IMG/VR virus record: IMGVR_UViG_2838247499_000001
Span: 10,120 to 74,119 of that record
DNA from: a virus
Taxonomy: Duplodnaviria > Caudoviricetes
DNA: 64,000 nucleotides
Direction: 5' to 3' (one strand)
Position numbers and translations under genes: made by a program. Positions 1,873 to 24,535 of the stretch are shown here, piece after piece; positions within the stretch are counted from its first letter, which is position 1; each line of letters begins with the position of its first letter. Under the pieces are notes generated by a model that saw nothing but the letters and a program-made list of their open reading frames with translations, was not told where the DNA came from and did no database searches.

Positions 1873-1914
1873 AGCTGACGCTCATTCCATCTCCTGGGAG
1901 CGTCGGCTTTTTTT
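1873..1914 (+). terminator. Rho-independent terminator upstream of nrdJ
   Basis: agctgacgctc / gagcgtcggct stem followed by a T7 run. Confidence 0.65.
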
Positions 1915-1958
1915 GTCCCCAGGAGAGCTGAAACCCCCGAGACGAAACCAGCCCCCAA

Positions 1959-3890: not shown

Positions 3891-4009
3891 CCTGTCATCG
3901 GACAGAGGTGGAGAGGCCCCTCCGGGGGCTTCTCCGGCCAAACAAGCGCGCGGGATTCAGCCCTGACTCTCAAAAGAACAAACGGCGGGGCATCAACACC
4001 ACTCAGTAG

Positions 4010-4372: not shown

Positions 4373-4381
4373 GAGAGCCGC

Positions 4382-5401: not shown

Positions 5402-5444
5402 AGCCAGATCACCTCCAACACCTCCCACCACTCCAAGGAGCTCC

Positions 5445-7583
5445 ATGAAATCCTTCGACGACATGGCGTATCACCCGACCTCGGAAAAGCTCGTGCAGAT
5501 CCTGCTCGATCGCTCCCAGGCCGGTGAGCCGCTGTTCTTCCGCATCCTCATCGGCTACTACTTCAGCATGGCCGCGGCACAGATGCGCTGCACCATCGAC
5601 TCGCCCCAGCATGGCGAGATCCCGGTCAACATGTACGCGCTCAACCTGGCGCCCTCGGGCTTCGGCAAGACGATGTCGTGCAACCTGCTGGAAAGCGAAG
5701 TGCTGGGCCAGTTCCGCACCCGCTTCCTGGAGGAGACGTTCGGCCTGCTGGCCGAGCAGAACCTGCCGAAGATCTCGCTCAAGCGAGCCAACCGCAAGGG
5801 CACGGATCCCGACGAGGAGCTCGTGCGCGTGCAGAAGGAGTTCGACTCCAGCGGCCCGATGCTGTTCAGCTTCGACTCCGGCACCAGCCCTGCTGTGAAG
5901 CAGATGCGCCACAAGCTGCTGATGGCCTGCGCCGGCTCCATGAACCTCATCATGGACGAGGTGGGTGCCAACCTGGCGGCCAACACCGAGGTGTTCGACA
6001 CCTTCATCGAGCTGTACGACCGCGGCATCATCAAGTCCAAGCTGATCAAGGAGTCGGCCGACAACAAGCGCAGCGAGGAGATCCTCGGCCAGACGCCCGC
6101 CAACCTACTGATGTTCGGCGTGCCGAACCGACTGCTGGACGGTGCCAAGACCGAGGAGCAGCTGATGCAGATGCTCGAGATGGGCTACGCCCGTCGCTGC
6201 TTCTTCGGCTACGTGCGTGGCTCCACCAAGCCGCAGCTCACGGCCGAGCAGATGTTCCTGGCTCGAACCAACAAGGCCAACGACCAGGTCATCGAGGAGC
6301 TGGCCGACCGGCTGGACAACCTCTCCGACCTGATCAACGCCAACAAGAAGCTCGTGCTCAGCAAGGAGAACTGCATTCTCCTGAACGAGTACCAGCTCGA
6401 CTGCGAGGCGCGGGCATCCAAGATGCCTGAGCACCAGGAGGTGCAGAAGTCCGAGATGAGTAACCGCTTCTTCAAGGTGCTCAAGCTGGCCGGCGCCTAC
6501 GCCTTCATCGACGATCTCCCCGAGATCACGCAGGACCACCTGTACGCTGCGATGAAGCTGGCCGAGGACAGCGGCAAGGCCTTCGAGATGCTGCTCAGCC
6601 GTGACAAGCCCTGGGTGAAGCTGGCCAAGTACATCGGCAGCGTCGGCCAGGACATCACGCAGGCGGACCTCGCCGAGGACCTGCCGTTCTACAAGGGCGG
6701 CACCAGCGCCAAGTCAGAGATGCTGACCCAGGCCACCGCGTGGGGCTACAAGAACAACATCATCATCAAGAAGTCGTTCTCTGACGGCATCGAGTTCCTC
6801 CGGGGCGAGACGCTGAAGGTGACCGACCTGGCGAAGATGGTGGTGAGCTACTCCACCGACATCGTCACCGACTACCAGAACGAGCTCGCACCGTTCGACC
6901 AGCTGCACAAGCTGACGCAGGCGCAAGGCCTGCACTGGGTGGCTCACCACCTGACCGGTGGCTACCGCAACGAGGAGAACGCCATGCCTGGCTTCAACCT
7001 CGCGGTGCTGGACGTCGACGGCGGCGTCAACATGTCGACGGTCAAGCTGCTGCTCAAGGACCACAAGTTCTTGATCTACACGACCAAGCGACACACCGAT
7101 GACGAACACCGGTTCCGCATCATCCTGCCCATGAGCCATGAGCTCAAGCTGGATGCCAAGGACTACAAGGAGTTCATGACCAACATCGCCCAGTGGCTGC
7201 CGTTCCCGGTGGACACCGCGGCGATGCAGCGTGCGCGCAAGTGGCTGTCCCACGACGGCCACTACGAGTACAACGACGGCGTGCTGCTCGACGTTCTGCC
7301 CTTCATCCCGAAGACCAGCAAGAACGAGGAGCGTAAGCAGCTGCTGGACTCGCAGCAATCCATGGACAACCTGGAGCGCTGGGTCATCAACAACATCGGT
7401 GACGGCAACCGCAACAACATGCTGCTGCGCTACGCCATGATCCTGATGGACGCCGGCTTTGACTTCGAAGGCATCCGCGTGCGGGTGCTGGGCTTGAACG
7501 ACAAGATCGTCGACAAGCTCGAGGAAGCCGAGGTCATGGGCACCATCATGGTGACCGTGGCCCGGCAGCTGGCCAAGCGCTGA
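5445..7583 (+). CDS. DNA primase (N4 gp43-like)
   Basis: APSGFGKT P-loop, LDVD, HRFRIILP, C-terminal GNRNNMLLRY (PriCT-like); N4 synteny. Confidence 0.88.
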   Translation: MKSFDDMAYHPTSEKLVQILLDRSQAGEPLFFRILIGYYFSMAAAQMRCTIDSPQHGEIPVNMYALNLAPSGFGKTMSCNLLESEVLGQFRTRFLEETFGLLAEQNLPKISLKRANRKGTDPDEELVRVQKEFDSSGPMLFSFDSGTSPAVKQMRHKLLMACAGSMNLIMDEVGANLAANTEVFDTFIELYDRGIIKSKLIKESADNKRSEEILGQTPANLLMFGVPNRLLDGAKTEEQLMQMLEMGYARRCFFGYVRGSTKPQLTAEQMFLARTNKANDQVIEELADRLDNLSDLINANKKLVLSKENCILLNEYQLDCEARASKMPEHQEVQKSEMSNRFFKVLKLAGAYAFIDDLPEITQDHLYAAMKLAEDSGKAFEMLLSRDKPWVKLAKYIGSVGQDITQADLAEDLPFYKGGTSAKSEMLTQATAWGYKNNIIIKKSFSDGIEFLRGETLKVTDLAKMVVSYSTDIVTDYQNELAPFDQLHKLTQAQGLHWVAHHLTGGYRNEENAMPGFNLAVLDVDGGVNMSTVKLLLKDHKFLIYTTKRHTDDEHRFRIILPMSHELKLDAKDYKEFMTNIAQWLPFPVDTAAMQRARKWLSHDGHYEYNDGVLLDVLPFIPKTSKNEERKQLLDSQQSMDNLERWVINNIGDGNRNNMLLRYAMILMDAGFDFEGIRVRVLGLNDKIVDKLEEAEVMGTIMVTVARQLAKR

Positions 7584-7594
7584 AGGGGGACGAC

Positions 7595-7951
7595 ATGGGA
7601 TTCAACACCACCATCGTCGTCTGCAACGACGCGCTCGGCTCCATCGAGCGGGACCCGCACTTCGGGCGCAGCCTGAGCATCGGCATCAGTGAGCTCTTTG
7701 GAGCTCGCCGCGAGGGCCGTACCACAGTGGACATCCCCTCGGGTGGCCACTGCAACGCAGCCATGGTCGTGGAGACGCATCACGCGGACAACACGGCCCT
7801 GATCACCGTTGGCGGCAACCTGGGCATCAAGCACCTGGAAACCTACGGCTGGTCCCACCACGAGCCCGGCATGCAGGCCCGCCTCCTCGCGGAGTGGGCC
7901 GACCGGCTCGGCTTCAAGCTCGTGGCCAAGACCAAGAAGGACAAGCGATGA
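7595..7951 (+). CDS. Hypothetical protein
   Basis: ORF with G-rich RBS and typical codon use. Confidence 0.65.
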   Translation: MGFNTTIVVCNDALGSIERDPHFGRSLSIGISELFGARREGRTTVDIPSGGHCNAAMVVETHHADNTALITVGGNLGIKHLETYGWSHHEPGMQARLLAEWADRLGFKLVAKTKKDKR

Positions 7952-8163
7952 CCGACAGCGACATCATCGCCCGGCTGACCAGCCGCAAGTTCATCGTCGT
8001 CGTCCTGAGCATGGTGGTCAACGCCGTGCTCAGGGTCACCGACGTCATCGACAACGACGTCTACCGGCAGCTGTCGATCGCACTGGTCGGCGGATACCTG
8101 ATGGCCAACGTGGCCCAGAAGGTCGTCGCCAAGGACTCCACCTCGGGAGAGGCCAAGTCCTGA
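7948..8163 (+). CDS. Small two-TM membrane protein (holin-like)
   Basis: ATGA overlap; MTDSDIIARLTSRKFIVVVLSM..., two hydrophobic segments. Confidence 0.6.
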   Translation: MTDSDIIARLTSRKFIVVVLSMVVNAVLRVTDVIDNDVYRQLSIALVGGYLMANVAQKVVAKDSTSGEAKS

Positions 8164-8184
8164 CCCGCCACAGCATCACCAACC

Positions 8185-8209
8185 ACGGGGACCTTCGGGT
8201 CCCCGTTTT
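8185..8209 (+). terminator. Rho-independent terminator
   Basis: acggggacc-ttcg-ggtccccgt followed by T run. Confidence 0.75.
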
Positions 8210-8222
8210 CATTCCACCTCCC

Positions 8223-8774
8223 ATGAATCACACCACCGAGAGCGACCCCAGCGGCCGCAATCCGCACGAGCCCGGCGCCAAGCTGGACAACGGCAAGACC
8301 TTGGCCTGGCTGTTCCATTCCGGCTTCGCTCGTGCCCTAGAGCACGTGGCCGAGATCACCACCGTGGGTGCACGCAAGTACACCCCTGGTGGCTGGGCCG
8401 AAGTGCCCAACGGCGTCGAACGCTACATGGAGGCCTTCGGGCGCCACCAGTTCGACCTGGCCAAGGGCATCGTCTTCGACGACGGCCCCAACGGCACCGG
8501 CAAGCGCCACAAGGGCCAGATGATCTGGAACCTGCTGGCTTCGCTGGAGCTCGAGCTGCGCGCCGAGGAAGACGCCGCGAGGGCCAAGGAGATCCAGGCC
8601 ACGCTCGCCGGCGCCATGCACATCCGCGGCCCGATCACCGACCAGCTGGCGCGTGATCCGTTGCCCGCCCGTGCCCGTGACTGGCTCACGGCGCAGGCTA
8701 CCCAAGAGGCCGGGATGCTCCCCAAGCACCAGGCCGTCGAGCGGCTGCTGTCCACGGTCGACACCGGCTCCTGA
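8223..8774 (+). CDS. dATP/dGTP diphosphohydrolase-domain protein (DUF5664-like)
   Basis: GAKLDNGK...GARKY..GGW...RY.EAF.RH...H...WN pattern; start at ATG 8223. Confidence 0.75.
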   Translation: MNHTTESDPSGRNPHEPGAKLDNGKTLAWLFHSGFARALEHVAEITTVGARKYTPGGWAEVPNGVERYMEAFGRHQFDLAKGIVFDDGPNGTGKRHKGQMIWNLLASLELELRAEEDAARAKEIQATLAGAMHIRGPITDQLARDPLPARARDWLTAQATQEAGMLPKHQAVERLLSTVDTGS

Positions 8775-8869
8775 GCGAGCAGTAGAGCAGGCGGCCTCCG
8801 GCCGCTCTCACGAACAACCAAGGAAGCGCCCCTCGCGGGCGCTTTCCTCATTCCAAACCACAAGGAACC

Positions 8870-9598
8870 ATGACCCAACAAGTCAACGACAACCTCGTGC
8901 TGGTCGTCGGCAAGTCCGCGACTGGCAAGTCCGCCTCCCTGATGGGGCTGACCAATCCGGAGGGCGTGATGTACCTGAACTGCGAGGCCGGCAAGAAGCT
9001 GCCGTTCCGCAGCAAGTTCAAGCAGTACGTCATCACCGACCCGCTGCAGGTCAACGAGGCTATGCAAGTGGCCGAGACGAAGCCGGAGATCCACACGATC
9101 GTGACCGACACGCTCACGTACCTGATGGACATGTACGAGAGCCTGTACGTGCTCGGCGCCGCGGACGGTCAGAAGGCCTGGGGCGCATTCGCCCAGTACT
9201 TCAAGACCCTGATGCAGCAGGACGTCGCCCGTTCCACCAAAAACGTGGTGTTCCTGGCCCACACCGCCGACCAGCTCAACGCCGGCGAGATGGTGATGGA
9301 GACGAAGGTCCCCATCAAGGGCGCCACCAAGAACAACGGCGTCGAGAGCTACTTCAGCCAGGTCATCGCGGCCAAGAAGAAGACGCTCAAGGAGCTGGAG
9401 GCCTACAAGTCTCCGCTGCTGACGATCACGCCGGAAGAAGAAGCGCTGGGCTTCAAGCACGTGTTCCAGACGCGCATCACCAAGGAAACGGTGAACGAGC
9501 GCATCCGCAGCCCCCTGGGCATGTGGGACACGAAGGAGACGTTCATCGACAACAACCTGCAGCTGGTCTTCGACCGCCTGCGCGAGTACTACGCCTGA
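8870..9598 (+). CDS. AAA ATPase (N4 gp44 / Sak4-like)
   Basis: GKSATGKS Walker A, IVTDT, FLAH; synteny. Confidence 0.85.
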   Translation: MTQQVNDNLVLVVGKSATGKSASLMGLTNPEGVMYLNCEAGKKLPFRSKFKQYVITDPLQVNEAMQVAETKPEIHTIVTDTLTYLMDMYESLYVLGAADGQKAWGAFAQYFKTLMQQDVARSTKNVVFLAHTADQLNAGEMVMETKVPIKGATKNNGVESYFSQVIAAKKKTLKELEAYKSPLLTITPEEEALGFKHVFQTRITKETVNERIRSPLGMWDTKETFIDNNLQLVFDRLREYYA

Positions 9599-9663
9599 CG
9601 AGCGCAGCACTCCCCCAAGCATTTCCCCCGTCACACCACACCTCAACTTCACAAGGAAACAAC

Positions 9664-10416
9664 ATGGGTATCCTCGGTTCCCTCAAGAGCGACGACAGCA
9701 TTGCCAACGAACGCGACAGCGTCGGTGGCGGCGGCCCGCTCGACTCCAACGCCTACAAGTTCAACATCGCCCTGGCCTACGTGGTCAAGGCCGCCAGCGA
9801 CGCGCTGGGCTTGTTCGTCTCCCTGAAGGGCGACGACGGCCGCGAGCTGCGCCAGACCTTCTGGATGACCTCCGGCAAGGAGAAGGGCTGCAAGAACTAC
9901 TACGAGAAGGACGGCGAGAAGCACTACCTGCCGGGCTACCTGCTGGCCAACTCGCTGGCGCTGCTCACCGTGGGCAAGGAGATCGGCGAGCTCGACACCG
10001 AGCAGAAGGTCGTCAACGTCTACAACAAGGAAGCCAAGGCCGAGACGCCGACCAAGGTCGACATGGTCATGGACCTGGTGGGCAAGGACATCGTCGCCGG
10101 CGTGATCAAGCAGATCGTCGACAAGACGAAGAAGAACGACGCCACCGGCCAGTACGAGCCCACGGGTGAAACCCGTGAGGAGAACGAGGTCGACAAGTTC
10201 TTCCGCGCCCGCGACAACATGACCACGGCCGAGATCCGTGCCCAGGCCGAGGCCGCCGCCTTCTACGACACCTGGGTCAAGAAGTGGGCCGGCAACGTGA
10301 AGAACCGCGCCAGCAAGGCCGGCAGCAACGGCACCGCCGGTGCGCCCCGTGCCGCCGCTGGTGCTCCGGCCGCGGCCCAGGGCACCAAGAAGCCGACCCA
10401 GTCGCTGTTCGCCTGA
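9664..10416 (+). CDS. Single-stranded DNA-binding protein (N4 gp45-like)
   Basis: AAGGA RBS, C-terminal KKPTQSLFA, position after gp44-like gene. Confidence 0.85.
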   Translation: MGILGSLKSDDSIANERDSVGGGGPLDSNAYKFNIALAYVVKAASDALGLFVSLKGDDGRELRQTFWMTSGKEKGCKNYYEKDGEKHYLPGYLLANSLALLTVGKEIGELDTEQKVVNVYNKEAKAETPTKVDMVMDLVGKDIVAGVIKQIVDKTKKNDATGQYEPTGETREENEVDKFFRARDNMTTAEIRAQAEAAAFYDTWVKKWAGNVKNRASKAGSNGTAGAPRAAAGAPAAAQGTKKPTQSLFA

Positions 10417-10425
10417 TCACCAGGC

Positions 10426-10893
10426 ATGCAGCGCTACCTCGGCACCAAGGTCGTCGAGGGTCAGCCCATGACCCGCGGGGAATACAACTCCCTGCGGGGC
10501 TGGACGAACCCGTCCGACGAGAACCCCAACGACGCCGGCTACCTGGTCGGCTATCTCGGTGGGGGCAAGCCCAACCATTCGGACTTCCCGTACTACATCA
10601 GCTGGTCCCCGGCTGAAGTCTTCGAGAAGGCCTACCGGCCGACCCAGGGCATGAGCTTCGGCCAGGCCCTCGACGCCCTGAAGACTGGGCACCGGGTCGC
10701 ACGTGCAGGCTGGAACGGCAAGGGTATGTGGCTCGACATGCAGCTTCAGGACGGCCGCTCCTACCCGGCCGGCGAGCTGGGGCTTCTGCCCCACCTGGCC
10801 TGGATCGGCATGAAGACGGCTGACAACAAGTTCGTCCCCTGGCTCGCCAGCCAGACGGACGTTCTCTCCGAAGACTGGACCATCCTCCCCTGA
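10426..10893 (+). CDS. DUF2829-domain protein
   Basis: SWSPAEVFEKAY, FGQALDALKTGHRVARAGWNGKGMW, WLASQTDVLSEDW. Confidence 0.85.
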   Translation: MQRYLGTKVVEGQPMTRGEYNSLRGWTNPSDENPNDAGYLVGYLGGGKPNHSDFPYYISWSPAEVFEKAYRPTQGMSFGQALDALKTGHRVARAGWNGKGMWLDMQLQDGRSYPAGELGLLPHLAWIGMKTADNKFVPWLASQTDVLSEDWTILP

Positions 10894-10897
10894 CTCC

Positions 10898-11278
10898 ATG
10901 ACCACCAACACTCCCGATCCCATCGAGCAGCTGATCCAGGACAAGGGCGCCGATGTCGCACCGCGCATCACGCCGGCCGACGTCGAGGCCAACATCGCCA
11001 GCGAGCACTACTTCACCGCTGGCGACGGTGTGGCGGGCGCCGACATGGCCGTGGGCCAGTCGACCAGCGTCTATCCGCAAGTGCTGGGCCTCCTGACGTT
11101 CTGCGTCCTCACCCTTCGAAACGGATTCACCGTGACGGGCGAGTCGGCCTGCGCCTCGCCGGAGAACTTCAACGCCGAGATCGGCCAGAAGATCGCCCGG
11201 CAGAACGCGGTGGCCAAGATCTGGCCGCTCATGGGCTACGAGCTCCGCTCCCGCCTCTCCAACTACTCCAAGGCATGA
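10898..11278 (+). CDS. N4 gp49 / Sf6 gp66 family protein
   Basis: LTFCVLTLRNGFTVTGESACASPENFNAEIG signature. Confidence 0.85.
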   Translation: MTTNTPDPIEQLIQDKGADVAPRITPADVEANIASEHYFTAGDGVAGADMAVGQSTSVYPQVLGLLTFCVLTLRNGFTVTGESACASPENFNAEIGQKIARQNAVAKIWPLMGYELRSRLSNYSKA

Positions 11279-11607
11279 CCCAAGACACCACTCCCGAGAA
11301 CCAACAGGCCAAGCCCGACACCGTCCCGGTGGAGGACCTGGACTCGTTCGTCCGCCACCTGGCGGCCTGGCACTCCCGCAAGGTCGCCATGCTCAACCAC
11401 ATGCAGACGATCCCCGAAGGGTCGAAGATGCAGGTGGGCAAGGACGGCGCCGAGGTCGAGCTCACGGGCGACATGCTCGCCGGCTTCAAGGCTGGCATCG
11501 AGCTGGCGCTCATCGAGCTGGGCAGCCTGCCCTTCGTGGCCGAGATGGAAGCCGACGAGGCCTCCACCGAAGCCCCGGTGAGCAGCGATGCTCCCGCGGC
11601 AGCTTAA
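11275..11607 (+). CDS. Hypothetical protein (N4 gp46-like position)
   Basis: Coupled ORF, codon use, synteny. Confidence 0.65.
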   Translation: MTQDTTPENQQAKPDTVPVEDLDSFVRHLAAWHSRKVAMLNHMQTIPEGSKMQVGKDGAEVELTGDMLAGFKAGIELALIELGSLPFVAEMEADEASTEAPVSSDAPAAA

Positions 11608-12163
11608 GGTCGTCGGCTGCGACCCCAGCCTCCGTAACTGGGGGCTGGCCGCTGGCCTGTACGACCTGGCCACCCAGAGGCTCCAGATCCTCAAGCTGGG
11701 CAGCCTGCATCCTGTCCTCCCCACCGGGAAGCAGGTCAGGCAGAACAGCCTGGATCTGGAGTCGGCCAAGCAGCTGTGTGAGGGCACCCTCGCCACGGTG
11801 AAGGACGCCCACGTGGTGTTCGTGGAAGTCCCGGTCGGCAGCCAGTCTGCCCGTGCCATGGCTTCCTACGGCATCTGCGTGGGTGTCCTGGGCGCTCTGC
11901 GCGCCATGGGCACCCCGTTCATCGAGGTGACCCCCACCGAGGTGAAGCTGGCCGGCCACGGCAAGAAGGACGCCACCAAGGCCCAGATGATCTCCTGGGC
12001 CATGAAGGCGCACCCTGAAGCCAACTGGCCCACCTACGTCAAGCACGGTGTGACGGAGGTCAGCGAGGCCAAGGCTGAGCACCAGGCCGACGCGGTGGCG
12101 GCGATCTACGCCGGCATCCGGACCAGCACGTTCCAACAGCTCCTGCCGCTCATGGCGGCCTGA
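11588..12163 (+). CDS. RuvC-like Holliday junction resolvase
   Basis: VVGCDPSLRNWG, VFVE, P.EVK, EHQADAVAA. Confidence 0.85.
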   Translation: MLPRQLKVVGCDPSLRNWGLAAGLYDLATQRLQILKLGSLHPVLPTGKQVRQNSLDLESAKQLCEGTLATVKDAHVVFVEVPVGSQSARAMASYGICVGVLGALRAMGTPFIEVTPTEVKLAGHGKKDATKAQMISWAMKAHPEANWPTYVKHGVTEVSEAKAEHQADAVAAIYAGIRTSTFQQLLPLMAA

Positions 12164-12197
12164 GCACCCACAACAACCCCCAACCTACAAGGATCCC

Positions 12198-12632
12198 ATG
12201 CAGATCAACCTGAAGCAGCGCGAGATCGAAGCCGCCCTGCGCATGTACGTGTCCCACCAGGGCATCAACCTGAACGGCAAGGAGGTGGCGATCACCTTCA
12301 CGGCCGGTCGCAAGGAAGGCGGCCTGACCGCCGACGTGTCCATCGAGGACATCACCATCCCCGGCTTCACGGACGCCGAGGTCGGCGAGCAGACCGGCAC
12401 CGCCAACGTGGTGCAGCTGGCTGCCGCCACCATCGCGGCCGCTGCGTCGACGCCTGCGGTGAACGCCGAGAAGCCGGCCGTGCAGACGACCGCTCCCGAG
12501 GCCACCGAAGCCAAGGCTCCGGCCGCGGCCAAGGAAGACCCGCCGTTCGAGCCGGACGCCCCCAAGGCGGAAGGCGAGGGCGCGAAGGCCGAGGACAAGC
12601 CCAAGACCAAGGTCGCCAGCCTGTTCGGCTGA
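12198..12632 (+). CDS. Hypothetical protein
   Basis: AAGGA RBS; Ala/Pro-rich tail ending SLFG. Confidence 0.75.
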   Translation: MQINLKQREIEAALRMYVSHQGINLNGKEVAITFTAGRKEGGLTADVSIEDITIPGFTDAEVGEQTGTANVVQLAAATIAAAASTPAVNAEKPAVQTTAPEATEAKAPAAAKEDPPFEPDAPKAEGEGAKAEDKPKTKVASLFG

Positions 12633-12646
12633 TCGAGTAGTCCGCA

Positions 12647-12829
12647 GTGAGCTGGCTCAAGACCTTCGGCTACATCGTGGCCGCCATCGTCGTCCTCGCG
12701 CTCCTGGTAGCTGGCTTGCTGGCTGCCGTGGTGGTGGCCGGGTTCATGGTGATCGTCACGGTCATCCTGGTCCTGGCCCAGGCACTGCGCGAGTACTTCG
12801 AGACGCGGCCGCGCAAGCGTCCAACCTGA
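12647..12829 (+). CDS. Small membrane protein
   Basis: Long hydrophobic stretch, basic C-terminus. Confidence 0.65.
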   Translation: MSWLKTFGYIVAAIVVLALLVAGLLAAVVVAGFMVIVTVILVLAQALREYFETRPRKRPT

Positions 12830-12841
12830 TCACCGCCTGAT

Positions 12842-12878
12842 CTGACACCCCGGAAAGACGGGGACCATCATTGAAGCC
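12842..12878 (+). repeat. Array repeat copy 1
   Basis: ctgacaccccggaaagacggggaccatcattgaagcc; complementary arm at 12945-12959. Confidence 0.95.
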
Positions 12879-13192
12879 TCTTGAGTCTCTGCTCAACATG
12901 CCTGCGGGGTCCACCGGTAACCGACCGTGGGCGCAAGCCCAGGGGGCTTCAATGATGGTGAAGGCGAAAGCCTGACGGAGTTCCAGCCCGAGCAGACCAC
13001 TCGACCGAAGCGGCGAAAGCCTGGCAGGGCGGCTGGCACCATCAACGAATTGTTCGGAGCACCACCTCAGCGACGGAAGGCGTAGGCCCCGGAGCCAAGG
13101 AAAGATGCGAAGGCCCTGGTGCGGGGTCTAGCCTGAAGACGGACCAGCCATCGAACTGCTGTGGTAAGCAGGAGCACCGTCCTTGAAATCGC

Positions 13193-13229
13193 CTGACACC
13201 CGGGAAAGACCGGGACCATCATTGAAGCC
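13193..13229 (+). repeat. Array repeat copy 2
   Basis: ctgacacccgggaaagaccgggaccatcattgaagcc; complementary arm at 13289-13308. Confidence 0.95.
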
Positions 13230-13661
13230 CTCGGCCTCCCCTGCCAGGGATGAAAGGGATCGGCAGAGCAGGTTCGAGTCCTGCACCTCCGAGGGTTTCA
13301 ATGATGGTGCCGAGGCCGCAAGGCTACAGGCGCGCGTAAGGGTAGACGAGCGATGGGTGTCCAGCTGTAGCGGCTGGAACAGGATGGCCCATCCCAGGAC
13401 GACAAGGGCGTCAACTGGAGTGATGCGTCTGCGACAAGGATGGCCTCCCGGTTCACGGCCTCCAAAGCAAACCCTCAAGGCACTATCAACAGCGACCGGT
13501 CGCCCCACGGGACCACGCCACTGAGCTTTTCCGAACCCTGCCACTTCAGGGGGACGTCGCAAGAAGTGGTGAAAGACTGTGGCTGCTACTACGCACGGCA
13601 GAGGAACCAAAGCGTGACGTTCCGGAGAGACGGAAGTAGGCCTGGCTCTCGCCCGATGAGC

Positions 13662-13699
13662 CTGACACCCCGGAACAGACGGGGACCATCATTGAAGCC
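13662..13699 (+). repeat. Array repeat copy 3
   Basis: ctgacaccccggaacagacggggaccatcattgaagcc; complementary arm at 13808-13828. Confidence 0.95.
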
Positions 13700-13928
13700 A
13701 CCTGCCCTTCCTGCGTAAGCGGAGAGACGCAGGCCCAGCCCCTGGTGCTCCGGTAAGGGTAAGGGGTACAGGCGGACACTGATCAACCGCACTGCTCGGA
13801 TCGGCCAGCAGGTGGCTTCAATGATGGTGCTGACTGCCCGCAGGACAATGCCTGTGTCAGCCCTGGTAACCACGTGCTCCCCGTGGGGGCGGGCATGGAG
13901 CCAGCACCATCTTCAACAACACACCACC

Positions 13929-14087
13929 ATGCCCTTCTTCCCCAAACCCCAACCAGTCGATCCCTTCGAACTGTTCATGGCCAAGCTCATTGGCGTGAAG
14001 TTCGAGCGTAGAGAAGCCAACACTGTCCTCGTTGGCTATCTCTACAAGGGCTGCATCTACGTCACCGAGCTCTACAGCGTCACTTGA
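13929..14087 (+). CDS. Small hypothetical protein
   Basis: MPFFPKPQPVDPFELF...; converges on vRNAP stop. Confidence 0.5.
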   Translation: MPFFPKPQPVDPFELFMAKLIGVKFERREANTVLVGYLYKGCIYVTELYSVT

Positions 14088-17000
14088 TGAGCGACATCGG
14101 CACCGACACCGTGGCCAGGCGATCCAGAGCGCCGGGGTACTGCAAGGCACCCCAGCTCCACGGGTTGTTGCCCAGGTGGTGCAGGAACGAACCATCCAGC
14201 ACGTTGGGGCCGATGCTCATGTAGTGATCCAGGGCCATCAGGCCCAGCACTCGACCAGGGTTCTCACGCATCGTGCGAGTCAGAACTCGCTGGATGCGCA
14301 GGAAGTACTTGGTGAACATGAACAGACCCATGTTGTCCAGGTACTGCATGCCGCGGTGCATCGGGACGTCGTAGTTGATGAACGTCTCGCTGGCGCGCTG
14401 CAGGGCCTGCTCCTTGGTCATCGGGTCCTTCTTGGTCACCAGGTGCTGGTACAGCGCATAGCGGGCCATGAAGTCCGACAGCCGGGTCATCCGGCTCATG
14501 GCCTGGTAGGTCTTGGTGTCGTGCGTCATGTAGACCTGCTTGGCCGCGGCCACCACGCCCGGGTTCAGGGCCTTGGTGAAGCGCTCGGTGCGACGAGCCC
14601 ACTCGGTCTTGTACGAGTAGGGGTCGTTTTCCTGGGCGACGTCTTCCACGATCGTGGGCATCAGGCCGGCCTCCATCAGCTCCTTGACCGGGTTGCGCGC
14701 CAGCGCATCCTTCAGGCGGGCCACCTGGCGCTCGATGTCCGAACGGGTGCCATTGCCTGCCGGCAGGTAGCCAGTGTCCAGCATCTGCTGCAAACGCTGC
14801 AGCTCGTTGCTGTCGCGCTCGAAGGCCACGGCGCCGCGCATGGCCACCAGGTGATGACGCACGAAGTCGCGCAGAGGCACCCCGGACAGAGCCAGTTGGG
14901 TGAAGTTCGACAGCACGTTGTCGATCAGCACCACCCCCGACTTGACCACGATGATGTCCTTCGTCTCCTTGACGATCTCCTTCCAGGCCTCCTCACCGCG
15001 GGCCAGATACCAGCCCAGCTTCTTGGCGTAGTTGTCGGCCTCGCGGTCGTCCATGCCCTGGCTGCGCGCATACAGGTCGAACCAGCCTCGAACGATGGCT
15101 TGCACGCCCTTGAGCGTGTCCTTGTCCTTGCGCAGGAACTCAGCAGCAGAAGCCGCCCGATAGCCGAACATGACGTCCAGCATGTCGTTGTGGACGTACA
15201 TGCCCTTGAAGCCCCAGACCCGGTTTACCTCCTGCTTGGTCTTCTCCGGCAGCAAGCGCCAGATCTCCTTGAGCTGGGGATCCGTGCTGTCCACCCCGAC
15301 CAGGAAGTAGCCCTTCTGGCGGTTGACGTCACGATCAGCGTCGAACTGCGCCTTCAATGCCTGCACGGCCTCGGAGTTCTGCGCCGGCGTGGTTTGCTTG
15401 TCGAACACCGAGCCGGCCAGGGTGCCGAGAACTGCATCGAAGTCGTTGTTGCGCTGCAGGATGTCGTCCTTGGTCTGCTCCTCCATCAGATGGCGCCAGT
15501 TCACCACCTTTCCGTGCTCGTTGTAGACGGGCGCCATGTGGTGGGTGCGATCGAGCTCGAGGTCCCGATGCGGGTCCAGGCGACGATCCAGCAGCGACAG
15601 CTTGCCGGCAGTCACCGCGGCCTGGCGCTGGGCATTGCGCCGGCCATCGTCGAACCCGGTGTGCAGGAAGCCGTTGTGCAGCTGCGAGCCCTTGGCCGCG
15701 GTGTCGGTCAGCGACATGATCCCGGAGTCCCAACGGGCACGGGCAGCACCGCGGCGCACGTAGATGCGCTGCTTCTGGCTCACCGGGTCGTGCAGGTCGT
15801 CCTGCACCTTGGCTCCCTCGGAGAAACCCTGAGCCAGCAGATCCTTGCCCCGCTCCTCGCCGGCGACTTCGAAGGCGGTGTGCGGGTTGAAGATCTCGGG
15901 CGTGTAGCCGTGCTGCATCAGCACCGGGTTGCCCCCGAACAGGCGCTCCAGGGCGTCAGCCTCCAGCTTCTTCAGCGTGCGCAGCAGGAAGTCCACCCCG
16001 TTGCCGCCATCCTGGCGAGCCGTCTCGGCAGACAGCACCGCGGCCGCGCGGGTCTTGTCAGCCACATCGGTCGACTTCAGGGCGAACAGCGAAGCCAGCA
16101 CCTTGATGCTGTCCTCGTGCTCCTCAGCCACTGCGCTGGCATGGGCCTCGTACCGGGTGTCGAGCATGCGCGCGATCACGTGGGCGTTGGGCATCAGGAA
16201 GCCCTTGACCTGGCCGGTGGCCTTGAAGTGCCCCAGGATGCGAGCCTGCTCGACGTACAGCCGGCGCAGCCGGGCTGGCAGTCGAGCCTCGAACTGGGCG
16301 ATGGCCTGGTCGAGCGCCGGCTGGCTGGTCAGCAGCTGCTCCATCTCGTTGAAACCGAAGTGGTCCAGCAGGTTATGCAGGCCCGTCCGCATGAACACCC
16401 GCGTCACGCTGGCCTTGGCTTCCGAGCTCAGGTCCTTGCCCTCGTTGACGAACGACTCCAGGGCGAACTTGGCCGAGTTGCTGATCAGGCTCTTGCGCTG
16501 GGCTTCCCGGTGCTTGACCAGGCGCAGGGACTTCTCGGCCCACTCCTTCACGCCGGCGACTTCGCGCAGCAGCGACGACAGGATGCCGCCTCGCTCGTTC
16601 ATCGTGCGATCGCGGAACTGCTGCAGCGCGTCATAGAACTGCTGCTGGCGGTGGCCGGCGACGGTGCGGACCACCGCGGCACTGCCCTTGACGATGCCGC
16701 TCTTGCTCTTGCGGAAGAAGTCCGAGCCAGCGACCTGCTCGACCTTTTTCATGGTCGCCTCGCTCGCCTTGGTGACCGCGTTCTCCAGTGGCTCCAGGTA
16801 GTTCACCCGCGCCTTGCCGTCCTTGATGGCTTCGCGGTTCTTGGCTTCGATGTCCACCAGCTGGCCAACCAGGGTCTGCAGCTTCTCGTCCAGGTTCTGG
16901 CCGTCGTAGGTGTGCGTGGCCATCCGGGCGAAGAAAGCCAGGATGTTCTCGAACACGATCTGCACCTTGTCGGCGAAGGTCTTGCCCTCGCTGACCGTGC

Positions 17001-20000
17001 GCCGATCCTTGCTCGGCACCTGCAGCAGCTTGTTCACGCCCTGGTGAGCGAGCGCCAGCGCAGCGAACCGGGCGAGGTACTCGCTCTTGTCGCCGTTGTC
17101 GGCTTCCACCTTGAAGATGAAGTCGTAGTGCGCCGGCGAGGCGAAGTCCGAGGGCTTCAGCGTCTGCTGGGCCTCGGTGAACAGGTCCGACAGCTCCTGG
17201 TAGGCCAGCTTGGTGTGGCCGGAGTTGTCCTTCAGCGCCGCTCGCACCGTGGCTTCCACCTGCTCGATGGCGAACGCTTCCTGGTCCGACACCGGCAGGT
17301 TGGCCAGGACCCGGCTGGCGAAGGGCGCCAGGCCGGTCTGCTGGGCCTTCAGCCAGGCTTCCCGGGGGGAAGTCGGGGCGTAGGGCTTCAGGGCCTCTGC
17401 GAACGCGCCAAACGGGCCGTGGAGCGCGTCGACGATGCCGGACAGGAGTTCGGACAGGTGCGCCTCGAATCGCGGCTCCAGGGGCCGATTCGCGTCGGCC
17501 AGGGCCTCATGGATCGCCTGGGTCGTGAACGCATCCACGGCAGCCATCGACCGGTTGATCGAGGCAGCCTCCGTCTGCTCCTGCGGATTCTGCAAGCCCT
17601 GGGTCTGAGCCACAGCCTGAACCAGGCCCGACACGTTGGCCACCAGGAGTGCGAGCCCCGTCTCCGCTTCGTGGAACAGCGGGTTGCCCACTGCCTTGCC
17701 CAGCAGGCCGGTCAGCGCCTTGATGAACTTCTGCAGCCCGTTGAGCAGGCGGTTGCCACCCGACTTCGACGGGGCATACATGCTGGCCAGGATGTCACGC
17801 TGGAACGCTTCGTTGGTCATCCCCCAGGAGATGAACTCGTCCAGGTTCTCGGTGGCCGCGGCATAGCGGCCATCCTTGTCCATCGCCTTGGCCTGCTCGC
17901 GCAAGGCCTCGAGCTCGTCGATGAGCTGCTTGGCAGCCGGGTCCGGCTGCTTGCTGGTGCGCTGCTCCCACAGGTAGCGAGCCAGGACACCGTGCAGCAT
18001 CTCGTGCAGCACCGTCTCCGCGGTCAAGCCAGAGGCCTTGAAGGCCGGGCTCAGGAAGTTCACCTCGTGGCGACCCTGACCGGCCACGTACCAGCCACGC
18101 GACGGGGTCTGCGCCGGCGCGATCACCGCATCCACCGCGGTGTCAGGCTTGACCAGGCGGAACGCCAGGTCGTTGGGCAGGACCCGGGCCACCAGGGCCA
18201 GTAGCTTCTGGTTGGCCGGCGACAGGCCGGCACCCTTCAGGTACGCCACCATCTCGGTGCCCGACTTGTCACCACCGTCCAGGAAGGCCACCAAGCCCGT
18301 GTCGCTGGCCACCGCCGACCGGCCCAGCTCACCGAACGGCGAGGTCTTCGGGGCAGGCACGGCAACAGGCGCAGCCTGGATCGCCGGCGCCGGCTTGGCG
18401 AACACCGCCAGGTGCAGCAGCCCCAGGGCCTCCATGTGGGACGGGTCCATCATCTGCGGCACAGCGGCCAGCTTCTCGGCCGCGGCCTTGCGGTCAGCGT
18501 CGGTCACCTCGTAGCTGCCGCCGTCGAAGGCGTACTGGTCCACCACCGCCCACTGGCTCATGGCCTGCAGCTTGGTCGTGTCCGCCTGGCGGGCCAGGTC
18601 GAAGGCCTTGCCCATCGCGTCGGCCAGCACCTGCTCGGGAGACTGCTTCTTGGAAGCCAGCGCCTCGAACACCTGGCGCAAGTTGGCCACCGCGGCCGGG
18701 GTCAGCGTTCCGGCGTCCTGCATGGCGGCGATCCCGCTCACCACCCGAGCCAGCGCATCGTAGGCCGCGGTCATGGGCGAGTAGCCCAGCAGCGACTCCC
18801 AGGTGCTCTGGTTGAACGCCTGGGCGGTCTTGGCCAGCGTGCCGACTCCGTCACCCACGGCGTCGTGGATGTTCAGGATGTTGCGGCCCAGCTGGGTCAG
18901 GTGGGAGATCTTGCTGTCCAGCGAGTGCGTCGAGGCCGACACCGCCAGCACGCCGGGACCGGTCTGCTGCACGGCCTGGCCACGGGCCGTCAGCTGCTTG
19001 GCGCCGTTGCCCAGGGGTTGGGCAAAGCCCACCGCCGTCTCGTAGGCAGGCGAGTCCACCGGGCCACGCTCGCGTCGAGCCAGCAGGATCCCGTGCGCCA
19101 GGTTGCCATCGTCCTGGCTCATGGCCGTGTGCATCACCGGCAGGATGCCGGCCAGCTTCTCTTTCAGCTGGGCTTCCTGCTCGGCCGACAGGTCGTGCAG
19201 CGGCACGCCGGCCTTGTTGCGCTCGATGCCCAGCTCGTCCATGAATTCACCGCGGGCCGCCTGGTACACCGCGTTGTAGAGCTCGTAGGCCAGGCTGGTC
19301 GTGGTCGTCAGCGCCTTGCGCTTCTCGATGAAGGGGGCAAACGCCTTCTCCACCACGCTCGCCGTGGCCTCACCCATCGTGTCACCGTAGGCCTTGCGCA
19401 GCGCCTTGAGCTGTCGATCCGACAGTACCCGGGCGTCCATGTACTTGGCGATCGGCTGGCCCACTTTCAGGGTCGGCGCACCACCGTGCTGCAGCAGCGT
19501 GTTCAGGTTGGCGATGAAGTCGTCGACCCTCTCCTGGCTGGCTTGCTTGACCGAGAACTGCTCGAGCTGGGCGTAGACCCCCTCGATGAAGGTCTGGGCC
19601 ATGCCGCGGCGGATGCTCTTGAAGCCAGAACCGAAGTTCAGCGGGTTCAGCGCACCCTTGACCAGGTCACGCCCGGCCTTCGTCACCACACCAGCGTCGT
19701 CGGCCACCCGGCCGGCCACGTTCCAGATCGCCGAGATCACGCCGGCAGGGACCTTGCCCTCGCCCAGCATGCCGCGCATACGACGGTCGATGTCCTTGGC
19801 GGTGTGCTCGTAGATGTCCGCGTTGCCCGCGGTGCCACGCCAGATGTTGTACTGGCGGAACTCGCTGTCCTCGGTGAAGAAGCCGCCGCGCTCGAGCAGC
19901 GCCTGCAGGTCTTCCACCGTCTCGCCGGCGCCGTAGAGCACGTGGTTCAGCATCGTGCCGTTGGCTACGCCGTCCACCTCACCCATCAGGTCGGTGGTGA

Positions 20001-24474: not shown

Positions 24475-24535
24475 AGGTATTCCGGAGGGCTCGGGTAATT
24501 GGGGACAGAGTGTACCCAATACCCGCCCCGGAATA

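What the first reader, a model, noticed from the sequence alone, without database searches (positions are those of the whole stretch)
12842..13911. Three-unit structured RNA array: conserved leader hairpin and long stem enclosing different cargo RNAs
Seen: a 37-38 nt repeat at 12842, 13193 and 13662. Its first half is a hairpin with a compensatory change (ccccg-gaaaga-cgggg, cccgg-gaaaga-ccggg, ccccg-gaacaga-cgggg). Its second half (arm A, accatcattgaagcc) pairs with a downstream arm B (ggYttcaatgatggt). The stems extend with unit-specific pairs: 12864-12878/12945-12959 (extendable by about 5 more pairs, two of them G-U), 13215-13234/13289-13308 (20 bp, one G-U) and 13685-13705/13808-13828 (21 bp perfect). 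The enclosed inserts of about 55-100 nt are unrelated to each other and contain GNRA or other hairpins. There is no credible ORF over 1.1 kb, at the locus where N4-like phages often carry tRNAs. Inference: a polycistronic small-RNA cassette in which a common processing stem (RNase III-sized) releases interchangeable cargos such as decoys, antitoxin mimics or regulators. I do not recognise it as a described family.
Basis: partly seen in the sequence, partly recalled or inferred. Interest (0 to 1): 0.9.

Follow-up and report, generated by a model that had tools for sequence, protein, structure and literature searches.

The report
Phage RNA cassettes with leader hairpin
Three repeated folded-RNA units in a gene-free stretch of an N4-like phage are copies of a small, uncatalogued RNA cassette that many unrelated phages use to frame tRNAs and tRNA look-alikes; what it does has not been tested.

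Summary
Window 12830-13930 is non-coding. It holds three + strand units. Each has CTGACA, a 5-bp hairpin with a GAAAGA loop, and directly after it a 20-21-bp helix enclosing 54-102 nt of unit-specific sequence. These are the longest local helices in the 74-kb genome.

Each part of the unit recurs in other phages:
- The leader (TGACA, 5 bp, GAAAGA, 5 bp, AC) occurs exactly in at least 120 IMG/VR contigs and in cultured phages Pokken, Medea1 and mEp390. Its stem covaries: 62 of 63 variants stay paired, 32 by a U-G wobble valid only on this strand.
- The closing helix has a conserved outer part (ACYAUCA/UGAUGGU) in 23 further instances, with 3-4 pair types at each of positions 8-16.
- The inner part of the helix corresponds to a tRNA acceptor stem. 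In four relatives the cargo scores as an anticodon-less tRNA. Here unit 2 keeps a perfect T-arm.

No Rfam family, tRNA model or searched paper matches.

My best reading is a modular stable-RNA cassette, co-transcribed and probably cut out by host nucleases. Processing and function are untested. The promoter, CRISPR-mimic, DNA-palindrome and translational readings are weaker. This scan already found the leader hairpin on other genomes. The fused closing helix and the three-unit array are what this window adds.

The parts
12842..12863 (+). Unit 1 leader: CTGACA plus a 5-bp hairpin CCCCG-GAAAGA-CGGGG
   Evidence: It matches the pan-phage pattern exactly (variant seen 23 times).
12864..12883 (+). 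Unit 1 closing helix, 5' strand (ACCATCATTGAAGCC plus TCTTG)
   Evidence: (I5). The outer ACCATCA is conserved in 26 instances.
12884..12939 (+). Unit 1 cargo, 56 nt. It ends in the GNRA hairpin TGGGC-GCAA-GCCCA, in the position that a T-arm would occupy.
12940..12959 (+). Unit 1 closing helix, 3' strand (CAGGG plus GGCTTCAATGATGGT)
12962..12973 (+). Small GAAA-capped hairpin directly after unit 1
13037..13049 (+). Degenerate arm-like copy (CACCATCAACGAA) preceded by CCTGGCA. Possibly a decayed fourth unit.
   Evidence: (I4, I14). Its pairing energy is at background level.
13193..13214 (+). Unit 2 leader: CTGACA plus hairpin CCCGG-GAAAGA-CCGGG
13215..13234 (+). Unit 2 closing helix, 5' strand
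   Evidence: (I1).
13235..13288 (+). Unit 2 cargo, 54 nt: a tRNA-derived remnant with a perfect T-arm GCAGG-TTCGAGT-CCTGC at 13268-13284
   Evidence: In one search, 21 of 23 bases match the T-arm plus 3' acceptor strand of the tRNA-Leu of relative L130. It is not called as a tRNA.
13289..13308 (+). Unit 2 closing helix, 3' strand (one G-U pair)
13314..13325 (+). Small GCAA-capped hairpin directly after unit 2
13662..13684 (+). Unit 3 leader: CTGACA plus hairpin CCCCG-GAACAGA-CGGGG (loop one base longer)
13685..13705 (+). Unit 3 closing helix, 5' strand
   Evidence: (I3).
13706..13807 (+). Unit 3 cargo, 102 nt, a multi-hairpin domain
13808..13828 (+). Unit 3 closing helix, 3' strand (21 perfect pairs)
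   Evidence: (I3).
13829..13861 (+). Hairpin directly after unit 3 (GCTGAC...GTCAGC)
13929..14087 (+). Probable small gene (52 aa) after the array. Its start context cacaccaccATG resembles that of other genes of this phage.
   Evidence: (GC by codon position 0.53/0.34/0.74). No family match.

Best explanation
The 1.1-kb gene-free island encodes, on the + strand, three copies of a modular stable-RNA cassette that is widespread in phages and not catalogued.

Each cassette has three parts:
1. A leader: UGACA, a 5-bp stem, the loop GAAAGA, the return strand, then AC.
2. A closing helix fused to the leader without a linker. Its outer 7-9 bp (ACYAUCAU / AUGAUGGU) pair sequence 5' and 3' of the body. 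Its next 6-7 bp (here GAAGCC / GGCUUC) correspond to a tRNA acceptor stem.
3. A cargo that is a tRNA-derived or other compact fold.

Inferred mechanism:
- The island is co-transcribed with the upstream replication genes.
- Every cassette folds on its own.
- Host RNA-processing nucleases cut at the cassette borders. Candidates are RNase III on the 20-21-bp helices here, and RNase P or RNase E where the cargo is tRNA-shaped.
- The leader hairpin, presumably through a conserved host factor, marks or protects the 5' border.
- The released small RNAs may act as handles or decoys for host tRNA-binding proteins. One of them is an anticodon-less tRNA look-alike.

Shown: the structure, the RNA strand, the family membership, and the tRNA relationship of the frame.
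Inferred: transcription, cutting, the host factor and the decoy role.
For: Structure and strand:
- Three helices of 20-21 pairs, the longest in the genome and longer on the + strand.
- GNRA-capped hairpins: 5 on the + strand against 1 on the - strand of the island; the genome's densest windows for them overlap it.

Leader is a real, widespread RNA hairpin:
- Among 125 instances there are three stem variants, all paired.
- In a scan that forced a different base at stem position 2, 62 of 63 hits kept both variable pairs. 30 were fully Watson-Crick in five pair combinations. 32 had a U-G wobble that pairs only on the motif strand.
- It also occurs in intergenic DNA of cultured phages Medea1, mEp390 and the N4-like Pokken.
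- It was found in only 2 of 401 sampled Pseudomonadota genomes.
- tRNAs within 1.5 kb of the motif: 52 on the same strand, 0 opposite. Six genuine tRNAs start 1-6 nt after it.

Closing helix:
- 26 instances (23 from other contigs plus the 3 units here) share ACYATCA...TGATGGT.
- Positions 8-16 show 3-4 Watson-Crick pair types each.
- Position 3 is U-G in 10 instances and C-G in 16.
- Own partners give a mean of 15.3 contiguous pairs, against 8.2 when partners are swapped.
- L374 carries ACCATCATTGAAGCGG / CCGCTTCAATGATGGT, almost the window's arm.

tRNA link:
- The cargos of L196, L373, L370 and L355 score 41-48 bits on Rfam tRNA (cut-off 29). They have canonical acceptor, D and T arms; in the one alignment shown (L196) there is a 3-nt 'anticodon loop' and an insert of about 50 nt.
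- Unit 2 here keeps a perfect T-arm.

Context:
- Relatives carry tRNAs and long helices at the same place.
- In LUZ7 the intergenic gap orf69-orf70, which lies at the same relative position, yields abundant small RNAs, one apparently made by processing (PMC9163698, passages read; map).
Against: - No RNA data exist for this phage. Both runs that hold it are DNA, so transcription, RNA ends and processing are not shown.
- The helix is only 9 bp in 8 of the 26 instances, and its outer part is conserved in sequence. That does not fit a generic RNase III site.
- Genuine tRNAs placed after the leader have no leader-trailer pairing. Leader and closing helix may therefore have separate roles.
- Units 1 and 3 show no tRNA feature, and no unit passes a tRNA model.
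- The leader also matches a sigma-70 promoter pattern.
- No partner protein is known. The phage encodes no RNase III, Ro60 or RtcB.
Confidence: 0.55

Rival explanations
1. Each leader is a sigma-70-type promoter (-35 CTGACA, 18-19 bp spacer, -10 CATCAT). Three separate small transcripts would then start near the end of the 5' strand of the helix. Only the unit-specific 8-11 bp would pair in the RNA.
For: - The consensus scan finds CTGACA-N18-CATCAT in units 1 and 2 (2 sites against 0.2 expected).
- With spacers of 16-19 bp, only 6 such sites exist in the whole genome on both strands, and 3 of them are the units.
- The conserved 37 nt span exactly -35 to about +1.
- The LUZ7 small RNAs in the intergenic gap at the same relative position have their own start site and are late transcripts (PMC9163698, passages).
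Against: - Across 107 distinct instances of the leader there is no -10 box. At the spacing used here the key positions are only A 31% and T 35%.
- Genuine tRNAs start 1-6 nt after the leader, which leaves no room for a -10 box and a start site.
- The supposed -10 lies inside a helix whose partner strand is conserved. It covaries at the very position of the -10 T: U-A 14, A-U 6, C-G 6. That has no meaning unless the 5' strand is in the RNA.
- The stem in the 'spacer' covaries.
- Unit 3 has a 19-bp spacer.
Confidence: 0.12
2. The leader, alone or with the helix, is a cis-acting transcription or stability element. It might work like a nut boxB or put antiterminator, or as a barrier against Rho or exonucleases, allowing RNA polymerase to read through untranslated, highly folded RNA. 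The cargos would be secondary.
For: - The shape resembles a boxB hairpin: a 5-bp stem with a purine-rich GNRA-like loop (boxB loop sequences are recalled, not taken from a call).
- The motif sits in front of untranslated RNAs, ORFs and terminators alike.
- In mEp390 it lies just after the repressor operon.
- Its sequence is conserved across phages of many hosts, which suggests a conserved host partner such as RNA polymerase or Nus factors.
Against: - No boxA-like partner is conserved. Downstream there are only 5-6 G-poor bases of low information.
- put RNAs are about 70 nt with two stem-loops (PMC9378689, passages), unlike this 23-nt hairpin.
- It does not explain the conserved closing helix or the arrays.
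Confidence: 0.12
3. The 37-nt repeat mimics a host CRISPR repeat, acting as an RNA anti-CRISPR or as Cas6 bait. The downstream anti-repeat would modulate it.
For: - The repeat is 37 nt, contains a hairpin, and ends in ATTGAAGC, which recalls the ATTGAAAC ends of some repeats (recalled, not from a call).
- RNA anti-CRISPRs exist as solitary repeat units in phages (PMC10651486, search listing and start of abstract only).
Against: - No Rfam CRISPR-DR family matches the repeat, even in a 56-nt search at E up to 10. The one CRISPR-DR16 hit is on the wrong strand, at 11 bits, E 9.6.
- In the wider family the conserved part is 5' of the hairpin (TGACA), and no 3' handle is conserved.
- The ATTGAAGC part is variable and corresponds to a tRNA acceptor stem.
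- The motif abuts tRNA starts.
Confidence: 0.04
4. The inverted repeats act at the DNA level: cruciforms or single-strand hairpins for replication, recombination or N4-type transcription, or MITE-like mobile cassettes with terminal inverted repeats.
For: - N4-like phages use DNA hairpin promoters. This genome has its own set, with a 6-7-bp GC stem and a TCC loop, at window 1842, 8791, 47977, 51040 and 56150.
- Both strands fold equally well overall, with z about -4.2 each.
- The patchy distribution of near-identical leaders in unrelated phages suggests horizontal spread.
Against: - The wobble pairs are all valid only on one strand: the 3 G-U pairs here, position 3 of the helix in 10 of 26 instances, and 32 of 63 leader variants.
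- The strand always agrees with neighbouring tRNAs, 52 to 0.
- GNRA loops are enriched on the + strand only.
- The leader differs from this phage's own hairpin promoters, having a 6-7-nt loop and no CACG.
- The internal sequences of the copies are unrelated, unlike MITE copies.
Confidence: 0.05
5. The helices are translational control elements. The 3' strand carries a purine-rich Shine-Dalgarno-like run, 5 nt, then AUGAUGGUG, sequestered by the 5' strand. Tiny ORFs or the downstream 52-aa gene would be regulated in this way.
For: - All three 3' strands read (C)AGGGGG, GAGGG or AGGTGG, then cttca or tttca, then ATGATGGTG.
- In unit 3 this ATG is in frame with the ORF ending at 14087.
Against: - The ORFs are 7, 12 and 88 codons.
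- The 13821-13928 part has atypical composition (second-position GC 0.58, against 0.34-0.5 in this phage's genes).
- The ATG at 13929 has the start context typical of this phage.
- ATGATG is simply the complement of the conserved CATCAT of the helix. It is present in relatives whose cargo is a tRNA-like RNA.
Confidence: 0.04

Closest known systems
Pan-phage GAAAGA-loop leader hairpin. It is uncatalogued. Earlier follow-ups of this scan reported it on other genomes. Not in Rfam, and not found in the papers searched.
   Same: The sequence and shape are identical: UGACA, 5-bp covarying stem, GAAAGA loop, AC. It lies on the sense strand, directly ahead of folded RNAs.
   Different: Here it is fused without a linker to a long closing helix with a conserved outer sequence, and it is repeated three times in one island. 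Unit 3 has a 7-nt loop. Unit 2 has a stem variant (CCCGG/CCGGG) not seen among the 125 collected instances.
tRNA genes and phage tRNA clusters (Rfam RF00005)
   Same: Same genomic place and strand as the tRNAs of related N4-like phages. The inner part of the helix corresponds to an acceptor stem. Unit 2 has a canonical T-arm. In four relatives the framed cargo passes the tRNA model.
   Different: No unit passes ARAGORN or the Rfam tRNA model. There is no anticodon arm. The acceptor-like stem is extended to 20-21 bp by leader-trailer pairing. No CCA is encoded.
Small RNAs sRNA1-3 of Pseudomonas phage LUZ7, from the orf69-orf70 intergenic gap (PMC9163698, passages read)
   Same: Both lie at the same relative position in an N4-like phage: after the SSB/gp46-like genes and about 1 kb before the 3' end of the virion RNA polymerase gene. 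In both, a non-coding stretch contains a long helix that encloses smaller hairpins. In LUZ7 the stretch is abundantly transcribed, and one RNA seems to be a processing product.
   Different: No sequence similarity. The LUZ7 gap is about 400 bp, lacks the GAAAGA leader and the ACYAUCA helix, and has an apparent sigma-70 promoter of its own (my reading). The function of the LUZ7 RNAs is also unknown. The paper's supplements, which may list their exact ends, were closed.
Bacterial Y RNAs of the YrlA type (PMC4201824, passages read)
   Same: A module that mimics part of a tRNA (T-arm) is joined to a long helix formed by the 5' and 3' ends. YrlA-type RNAs are also found in phages.
   Different: YrlA is defined by lying within 4 kb of a Ro60 (TROVE) gene on the same strand, and by a GNCGAA motif. 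This phage has no TROVE gene, and no Rfam family matched. In the units here the ends enter through the acceptor-stem side.
Leader-trailer processing helices of rRNA operons and the RNase III sites of phage T7 early RNA (textbook knowledge, recalled)
   Same: Sequences 5' and 3' of a stable RNA pair into a helix of about 20 bp or more, which could be cut by RNase III to release the enclosed RNA.
   Different: The outer base pairs here are conserved in sequence across unrelated phages, and the helix can be as short as 9 bp. Cleavage has not been tested.
Lambda-type nut boxB hairpins and HK022 put RNA
   Same: A short 5-bp hairpin with a purine-rich loop in phage leader RNA, possibly bound by a transcription factor (boxB loop sequences are recalled).
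   Different: There is no boxA partner. put RNA is about 70 nt with two stem-loops. The element here is found in phage types that are not lambdoid.

Membership tests
Pan-phage GAAAGA-loop leader hairpin | UGACA directly 5' of a 5-bp stem, loop GAAAGA, then AC directly 3' | tested here: met
   Unit 1 matches the scanned pattern exactly (the CCCCG/CGGGG variant, seen 23 times). Unit 2 fits it with a new paired stem variant. Unit 3 has a one-base loop insertion.
Pan-phage GAAAGA-loop leader hairpin | The stem is kept by covariation, on the sense strand | tested here: met
   62 of 63 variant hits stay paired, 32 of them by a U-G wobble valid on the motif strand only. Within the window there is a C-G to G-C swap between units.
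Leader plus ACYAUCA/UGAUGGU closing-helix cassette (subfamily defined here) | The helix starts at the A of AC with no linker; the outer 7 bp are conserved; the inner pairs covary | tested here: met
   All three units are among the 26 instances. Positions 8-16 show 3-4 pair types each. Own partners give 15.3 pairs on average, swapped partners 8.2.
tRNA (Rfam RF00005 / ARAGORN) | Cloverleaf with acceptor, D, anticodon and T arms that passes the model cut-off | tested here: not met
   ARAGORN finds only tRNA-Gly at 27830. cmscan finds no tRNA hit at E up to 10 over 12600-14100 or over unit 2 alone. Only the T-arm of unit 2 is canonical.
YrlA / bacterial Y RNA | Encoded within 4 kb of a Ro60 (TROVE) gene on the same strand | tested here: not met
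   No TROVE match in the 74-kb phage genome. The control search found it in 2 of 14 named genomes.
CRISPR repeat mimic (RNA anti-CRISPR) | Sequence similarity to a CRISPR repeat of the host | tested here: inconclusive
   No Rfam CRISPR-DR family matches on the sense strand. The host and its arrays are unknown, so the direct comparison could not be made.
Sigma-70 promoter | -35 and -10 hexamers at 16-19 bp spacing, with a transcription start 5-9 nt downstream | tested here: inconclusive
   The hexamers match 9 of 12 in all three units. The start site cannot be tested here. The -10 is not conserved in the wider family.
RNase III processing site | About two turns (20 bp or more) of double-stranded RNA that is cut by RNase III | not testable with these tools
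   The helix length is met in the predicted fold (20-21 bp). Cleavage is not testable. 8 of the 26 family members have only 9 bp.
MITE / mobile element with terminal inverted repeats | Copies share internal sequence as well as the terminal repeats | tested here: not met
   The internal sequences of the three units are unrelated. The wobble pairs are strand-specific.
N4-type DNA hairpin promoter | GC-rich stem, 3-nt loop, start about 13-15 nt from the loop centre (LUZ7: PMC9163698, passages) | tested here: not met
   The phage's own set has a 6-7-bp stem, a TCC loop and, in four of the five sites, CACG, with a G 14 nt from the loop centre. The leader hairpin has a 6-7-nt loop and no such G.

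The most novel reading that the evidence does not exclude
The leader hairpin plus the sequence-conserved closing helix would be a dedicated RNA 'punctuation' signal. A still unknown, widely conserved host factor or nuclease would read it. Phages of many kinds would use it to cut out and stabilise custom small RNAs. The cargos, anticodon-less tRNA look-alikes and other folds, would be decoys that neutralise host tRNA-directed defences or hijack tRNA-handling enzymes. The three-unit array here would then be a small arsenal of such decoys.
Probability: 0.2. Interest if true: 0.85.

Novelty: new variant of a known kind. Interest (0 to 1): 0.66.

Why it matters
A 23-nt RNA hairpin that is identical in sequence across lambdoid, N4-like and many uncultured phages, yet absent from Rfam and from the literature searched, points to an unrecognised interaction with a conserved host component.

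This window shows the hairpin as part of a larger cassette. A sequence-conserved leader-trailer helix extends a tRNA acceptor stem and frames interchangeable cargos, and the cassette occurs three times in a row.

If the cassette is a processing and stabilising signal, it would explain how phages express folded small RNAs from inside operons. It would also offer a portable tool for RNA expression. If the cargos are tRNA mimics aimed at host defences or tRNA enzymes, it opens a new class of RNA-based counter-defence.

It also gives the unexplained LUZ7 small-RNA cluster a comparative context.

Tried and rejected
Searches that found nothing:
- Known RNA families. Rfam scans of the region found nothing relevant: 1.5 kb at E up to 10, 56 nt and 136 nt. 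The hits were snoRNA and miRNA noise. Rfam on L141-L143 gave only tRNAs.
- Close relatives for covariation. blastn of the island against 'phages' gave no match.
- The virion RNA polymerase C-terminus found only relatives at 34-46% identity, in viral contigs (10 loci), metagenomes (5) and genomes (2). None of them has the arm sequence.

Sequencing runs: no RNA holder is listed. Of the two DNA runs, X1 is probably the source of this DNA. X2, a soil metagenome, holds 99% identical fragments with 3 substitutions, none of them in a stem. This gave no evidence on expression and no covariation.

Readings considered and set aside:
- 'Third arm' conformational switch (notes of other readers). The alternative pairings of the 3' strands score -24 to -30 kcal/mol, against -35 to -46 for the cognate pairing. 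That is no better than matches in the neighbouring coding sequence. Rejected as unsupported.
- Motif TGA as a stop codon, or a recoding signal. There is no frame preference: 15, 6 and 12 of 109.
- Hammerhead, twister, pistol, hatchet and HDV-like ribozymes. I considered these from the CUGA..GAAA letters. None was found by Rfam.
- Integron attC, REP/REPIN and Frpo-type single-strand promoters. I considered these from memory. The layout does not fit: the hairpin is on one side only, the -35 lies outside the helix, and there is no GTTRRRY core.
- Phage-encoded partner proteins. No TROVE, RNase III or RtcB.

Weak or uncontrolled results:
- Overall folding energy does not tell the strands apart, z about -4.2 on both.
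- A hairpin follows the helix within 8 nt in 25 of 26 instances. I ran no control, so I give this little weight.

Literature:
- A search for the motif letters found 0 papers.
- The searches 'LUZ7 sRNA', 'Schitoviridae plus small RNA terms' and 'tRNA-like/anticodon/leader-trailer' gave no description of this element.
- Supplementary files of papers were closed, so the LUZ7 start-site and terminator tables could not be checked.

Not done: I built no covariance model and ran no R-scape-type test. The covariation counts come from my own scripts.
Full report
**What is there.** The window is part of a 74,119-bp virus record. It is a divergent N4-like phage. A 3479-aa virion RNA polymerase gene lies at 14080-24519 on the - strand. 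Its best cultured relatives, the Pseudomonas phages phCDa and LIT1/PEV2-like phages, share 34-41% identity. Upstream of the finding lie + strand replication genes: primase, Sak4-like protein, gp46/48-like proteins and a RuvC-like resolvase. Between the last of them (end 12829) and a small ORF (13929-14087) lies a 1.1-kb stretch without codon periodicity. None of its ORFs matches Pfam or PHROGs.

**The observation.** The three units are exactly as described.
- Each unit has CTGACA, then a 5-bp hairpin. The loop is GAAAGA in units 1 and 2 and GAACAGA in unit 3. One C-G to G-C swap distinguishes unit 2.
- With no linker there follows a helix of 20, 20 and 21 pairs, at 12864-12883/12940-12959, 13215-13234/13289-13308 and 13685-13705/13808-13828.
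- The first 15 pairs of the helix are shared. The next 5-6 are specific to each unit.
- The helices enclose 56, 54 and 102 nt that are unrelated to each other.
- The arm is found nowhere else in the genome.
- These helices are the longest local helices in the whole genome. Because of three G-U pairs they are longer on the + strand.
- GNRA-capped hairpins are concentrated on the + strand of the island: 5 against 1 on the - strand, and the genome's densest windows for them overlap it.
- Overall folding energy does not distinguish the strands.

**The leader is a widespread phage RNA hairpin.** A short-query blastn of the leader against cultured phages hit intergenic spots in very different phages: Pseudomonas phage Medea1, the E. 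coli lambdoid mEp390, and the Stenotrophomonas N4-like phage Pokken, among others. The hits share an almost identical string: TGACA, GCCGG, GAAAGA, CCGGC, AC.
- The 125 instances fall into three stem variants, all of them paired.
- I expect fewer than one chance match for such a pattern in about 10^11 bases. This is my own arithmetic; no tool states the size of the collection.
- To test the stem without circularity I scanned for instances in which stem position 2 is not C and left the partner positions free. In 62 of 63 hits both free pairs are kept. 30 are fully Watson-Crick, in five different combinations. 32 use a U-G wobble that pairs only on the motif strand.
- The flanks carry no information upstream. 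Downstream there are only 5-6 G-poor bases.
- The motif's TGA is not preferentially a stop codon.
- The motif is rare in bacteria: 2 of 401 sampled Pseudomonadota genomes and 6 of 5426 E. coli genomes by a 45-nt blastn.
- tRNA genes within 1.5 kb lie on the same strand 52 times and on the opposite strand never. Six genuine tRNAs begin 1-6 nt after the motif.
- It is therefore a sense-strand RNA element placed directly ahead of folded RNAs, and also ahead of ORFs and terminators.
- Rfam does not know it, and no searched paper contains its letters.
- Earlier follow-ups of this scan reached the same conclusion on other genomes. I found it independently before that look-up.

**The closing helix is a conserved frame built on a tRNA acceptor stem.** A scan for the leader followed by ACYATCA gave 51 contigs.
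- Among 41 distinct instances, 23 have the partner TGATGGT downstream with at least 9 contiguous pairs. With the window's three units that makes 26.
- Positions 1-7 are constant, except position 3, which is C-G in 16 and U-G in 10.
- Positions 8-16 show three or four Watson-Crick pair types each.
- Own partners pair over 15.3 positions on average. Swapped partners pair over 8.2.
- L374 carries ACCATCATTGAAGCGG / CCGCTTCAATGATGGT, almost the window's arm.
- In L196, L373, L370 and L355 the inner seven pairs are the acceptor stem of a cargo that scores 41-48 bits on the Rfam tRNA model. The L196 alignment, the only one shown, has normal acceptor, D and T arms, a 3-nt 'anticodon loop' and an insert of about 50 nt. 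ARAGORN did not call the L196 cargo, the only one of the four it was run on.
- The window's shared 15-bp arm is therefore an 8-9-bp leader-trailer helix (ACCAUCAUU / AAUGAUGGU) plus a 6-7-bp acceptor-type stem (GAAGCC / GGCUUC).
- Unit 2 still holds a perfect T-arm. 21 of 23 bases match the 3' end of a relative's tRNA-Leu. Units 1 and 3 hold other folds.
- No unit passes a tRNA model.
- Genuine tRNAs that follow the leader lack the leader-trailer helix and carry CCA.

**Context in relatives.** All the distant N4-like relatives recovered carry tRNAs, or 16-26-bp helices enclosing 30-235 nt, or both. These lie within about 3 kb past the polymerase gene, on the strand opposite to it. Several have hairpins with a UUGGAYA loop and a covarying stem next to the 3' strand of the helix.

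In LUZ7 the intergenic gap orf69-orf70 lies at the same relative position. It is reported to give three abundant small RNAs late in infection, one of them apparently by processing. Their function is unknown (PMC9163698, passages). An E. coli prophage shows a degenerate leader and a long helix that abuts the 5' end of a tRNA-Arg gene.

**How it probably works.**
- Shown: the structure, the strand, the family membership and the tRNA ancestry of the frame.
- Inferred: the island is read through from the upstream operon. Each cassette folds independently. Host nucleases release the framed RNAs, and the leader hairpin, with its invariant loop, is read by a conserved host component.
- RNase III is plausible for the 20-21-bp helices here. 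It cannot be general, because the helix is 9 bp in 8 of 26 instances and its outer pairs are conserved in sequence.
- The phage has no RNase III, Ro60 or RtcB of its own.
- A decoy or handle role for tRNA-shaped cargos is an attractive idea, but nothing supports it directly.

**Rivals.**
- Sigma-70 promoter. The leader matches CTGACA-N18/19-CATCAT, and 3 of the 6 such sites in the genome are the units. Against this, the -10 is not conserved in the family. tRNAs start too close to the leader. The '-10' lies in a covarying helix.
- CRISPR-repeat mimic. This finds no support in Rfam or in the conservation pattern. It cannot be excluded without the host's arrays.
- DNA-level palindromes. These are contradicted by the strand-specific wobbles and by the tRNA strand agreement.
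- Translational control through the ATGATG in the 3' strand. This is unlikely on coding statistics.
- The 'third arm' switch. It is at background level.

**Verdict.** The finding is real. It belongs to an uncatalogued but widespread kind of phage RNA module. What this window adds is the fused, sequence-conserved closing helix derived from a tRNA acceptor stem, and a three-unit array with mostly non-tRNA cargos. Function remains to be tested.

Noticed in passing
window 1842, 8791, 47977, 51040, 56150 (+ strand); also 40608-40622: A separate family of N4-type hairpin promoters: a 6-7-bp GC stem, a TCC loop, then ..CACG.., with a G exactly 14 nt from the loop centre. These are probably the phage's early or middle promoters. 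The region 40400-41450 looks like the start of the early region.
   Followed up: partly
L122 9573-9360, L126 9897-9642, L138 8282-8065 (- strand of the loci): Distant N4-like relatives have 17-26-bp helices with a shared outer sequence (CATCGGAGGTA.. or GGTTGTATT..). A hairpin with loop TTGGAYA and a covarying stem (GAGGG, GTAGG, GCAGG) lies next to the 3' strand. This may be a second, related family of framed RNAs.
   Followed up: partly
L126 7474-7607 (- strand): An Rfam tRNA hit of 134 nt (48 bits) in a relative, that is, a tRNA with an insertion of about 60 nt.
   Followed up: no
L264 (E. coli NZ_CP136025) 680-790 and 960-1040; L142 (mEp390) 625-710 and 785-865: Lambdoid prophages carry two long helices with shared arms (CAAC(A)TGAAAGCGC.. 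/ ..GCGCTTYCARTTG). One of them ends exactly at the 5' end of a tRNA-Arg gene. The arms resemble the window's arm (ACCATCATTGAAGCC).
   Followed up: partly
L196, L343, L355, L357, L371: the 20 nt after the closing helix: A second recurrent small hairpin, GAAYGCGCA-GGCTGA-TGCGC, follows the closing helix in several unrelated contigs. Another group has GAAGCGCC-TTCG-GGCGCTC.
   Followed up: no
L355 2088-2162: An Rfam Burkholderiales-2 RNA (76.9 bits, above its cut-off) lies in a contig that also carries the cassette.
   Followed up: no
window 12500-14200 in run X2: A 2025 soil metagenome holds fragments of this phage at 99% identity or more, with 3 substitutions in 1.7 kb. The phage therefore exists outside the probable source sample.
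   Followed up: partly
whole genome G000: The gene blocks alternate in strand: 1-11044 on -, 11135-22948 on +, 24199-50513 on -, 51565-73871 on +. IMG/VR classes the record as 'provirus', which is odd for an N4-like phage.
   Followed up: no
window 12827-12847: Three TGA triplets in different frames lie between the end of the 60-aa membrane-protein ORF and the first leader.
   Followed up: no
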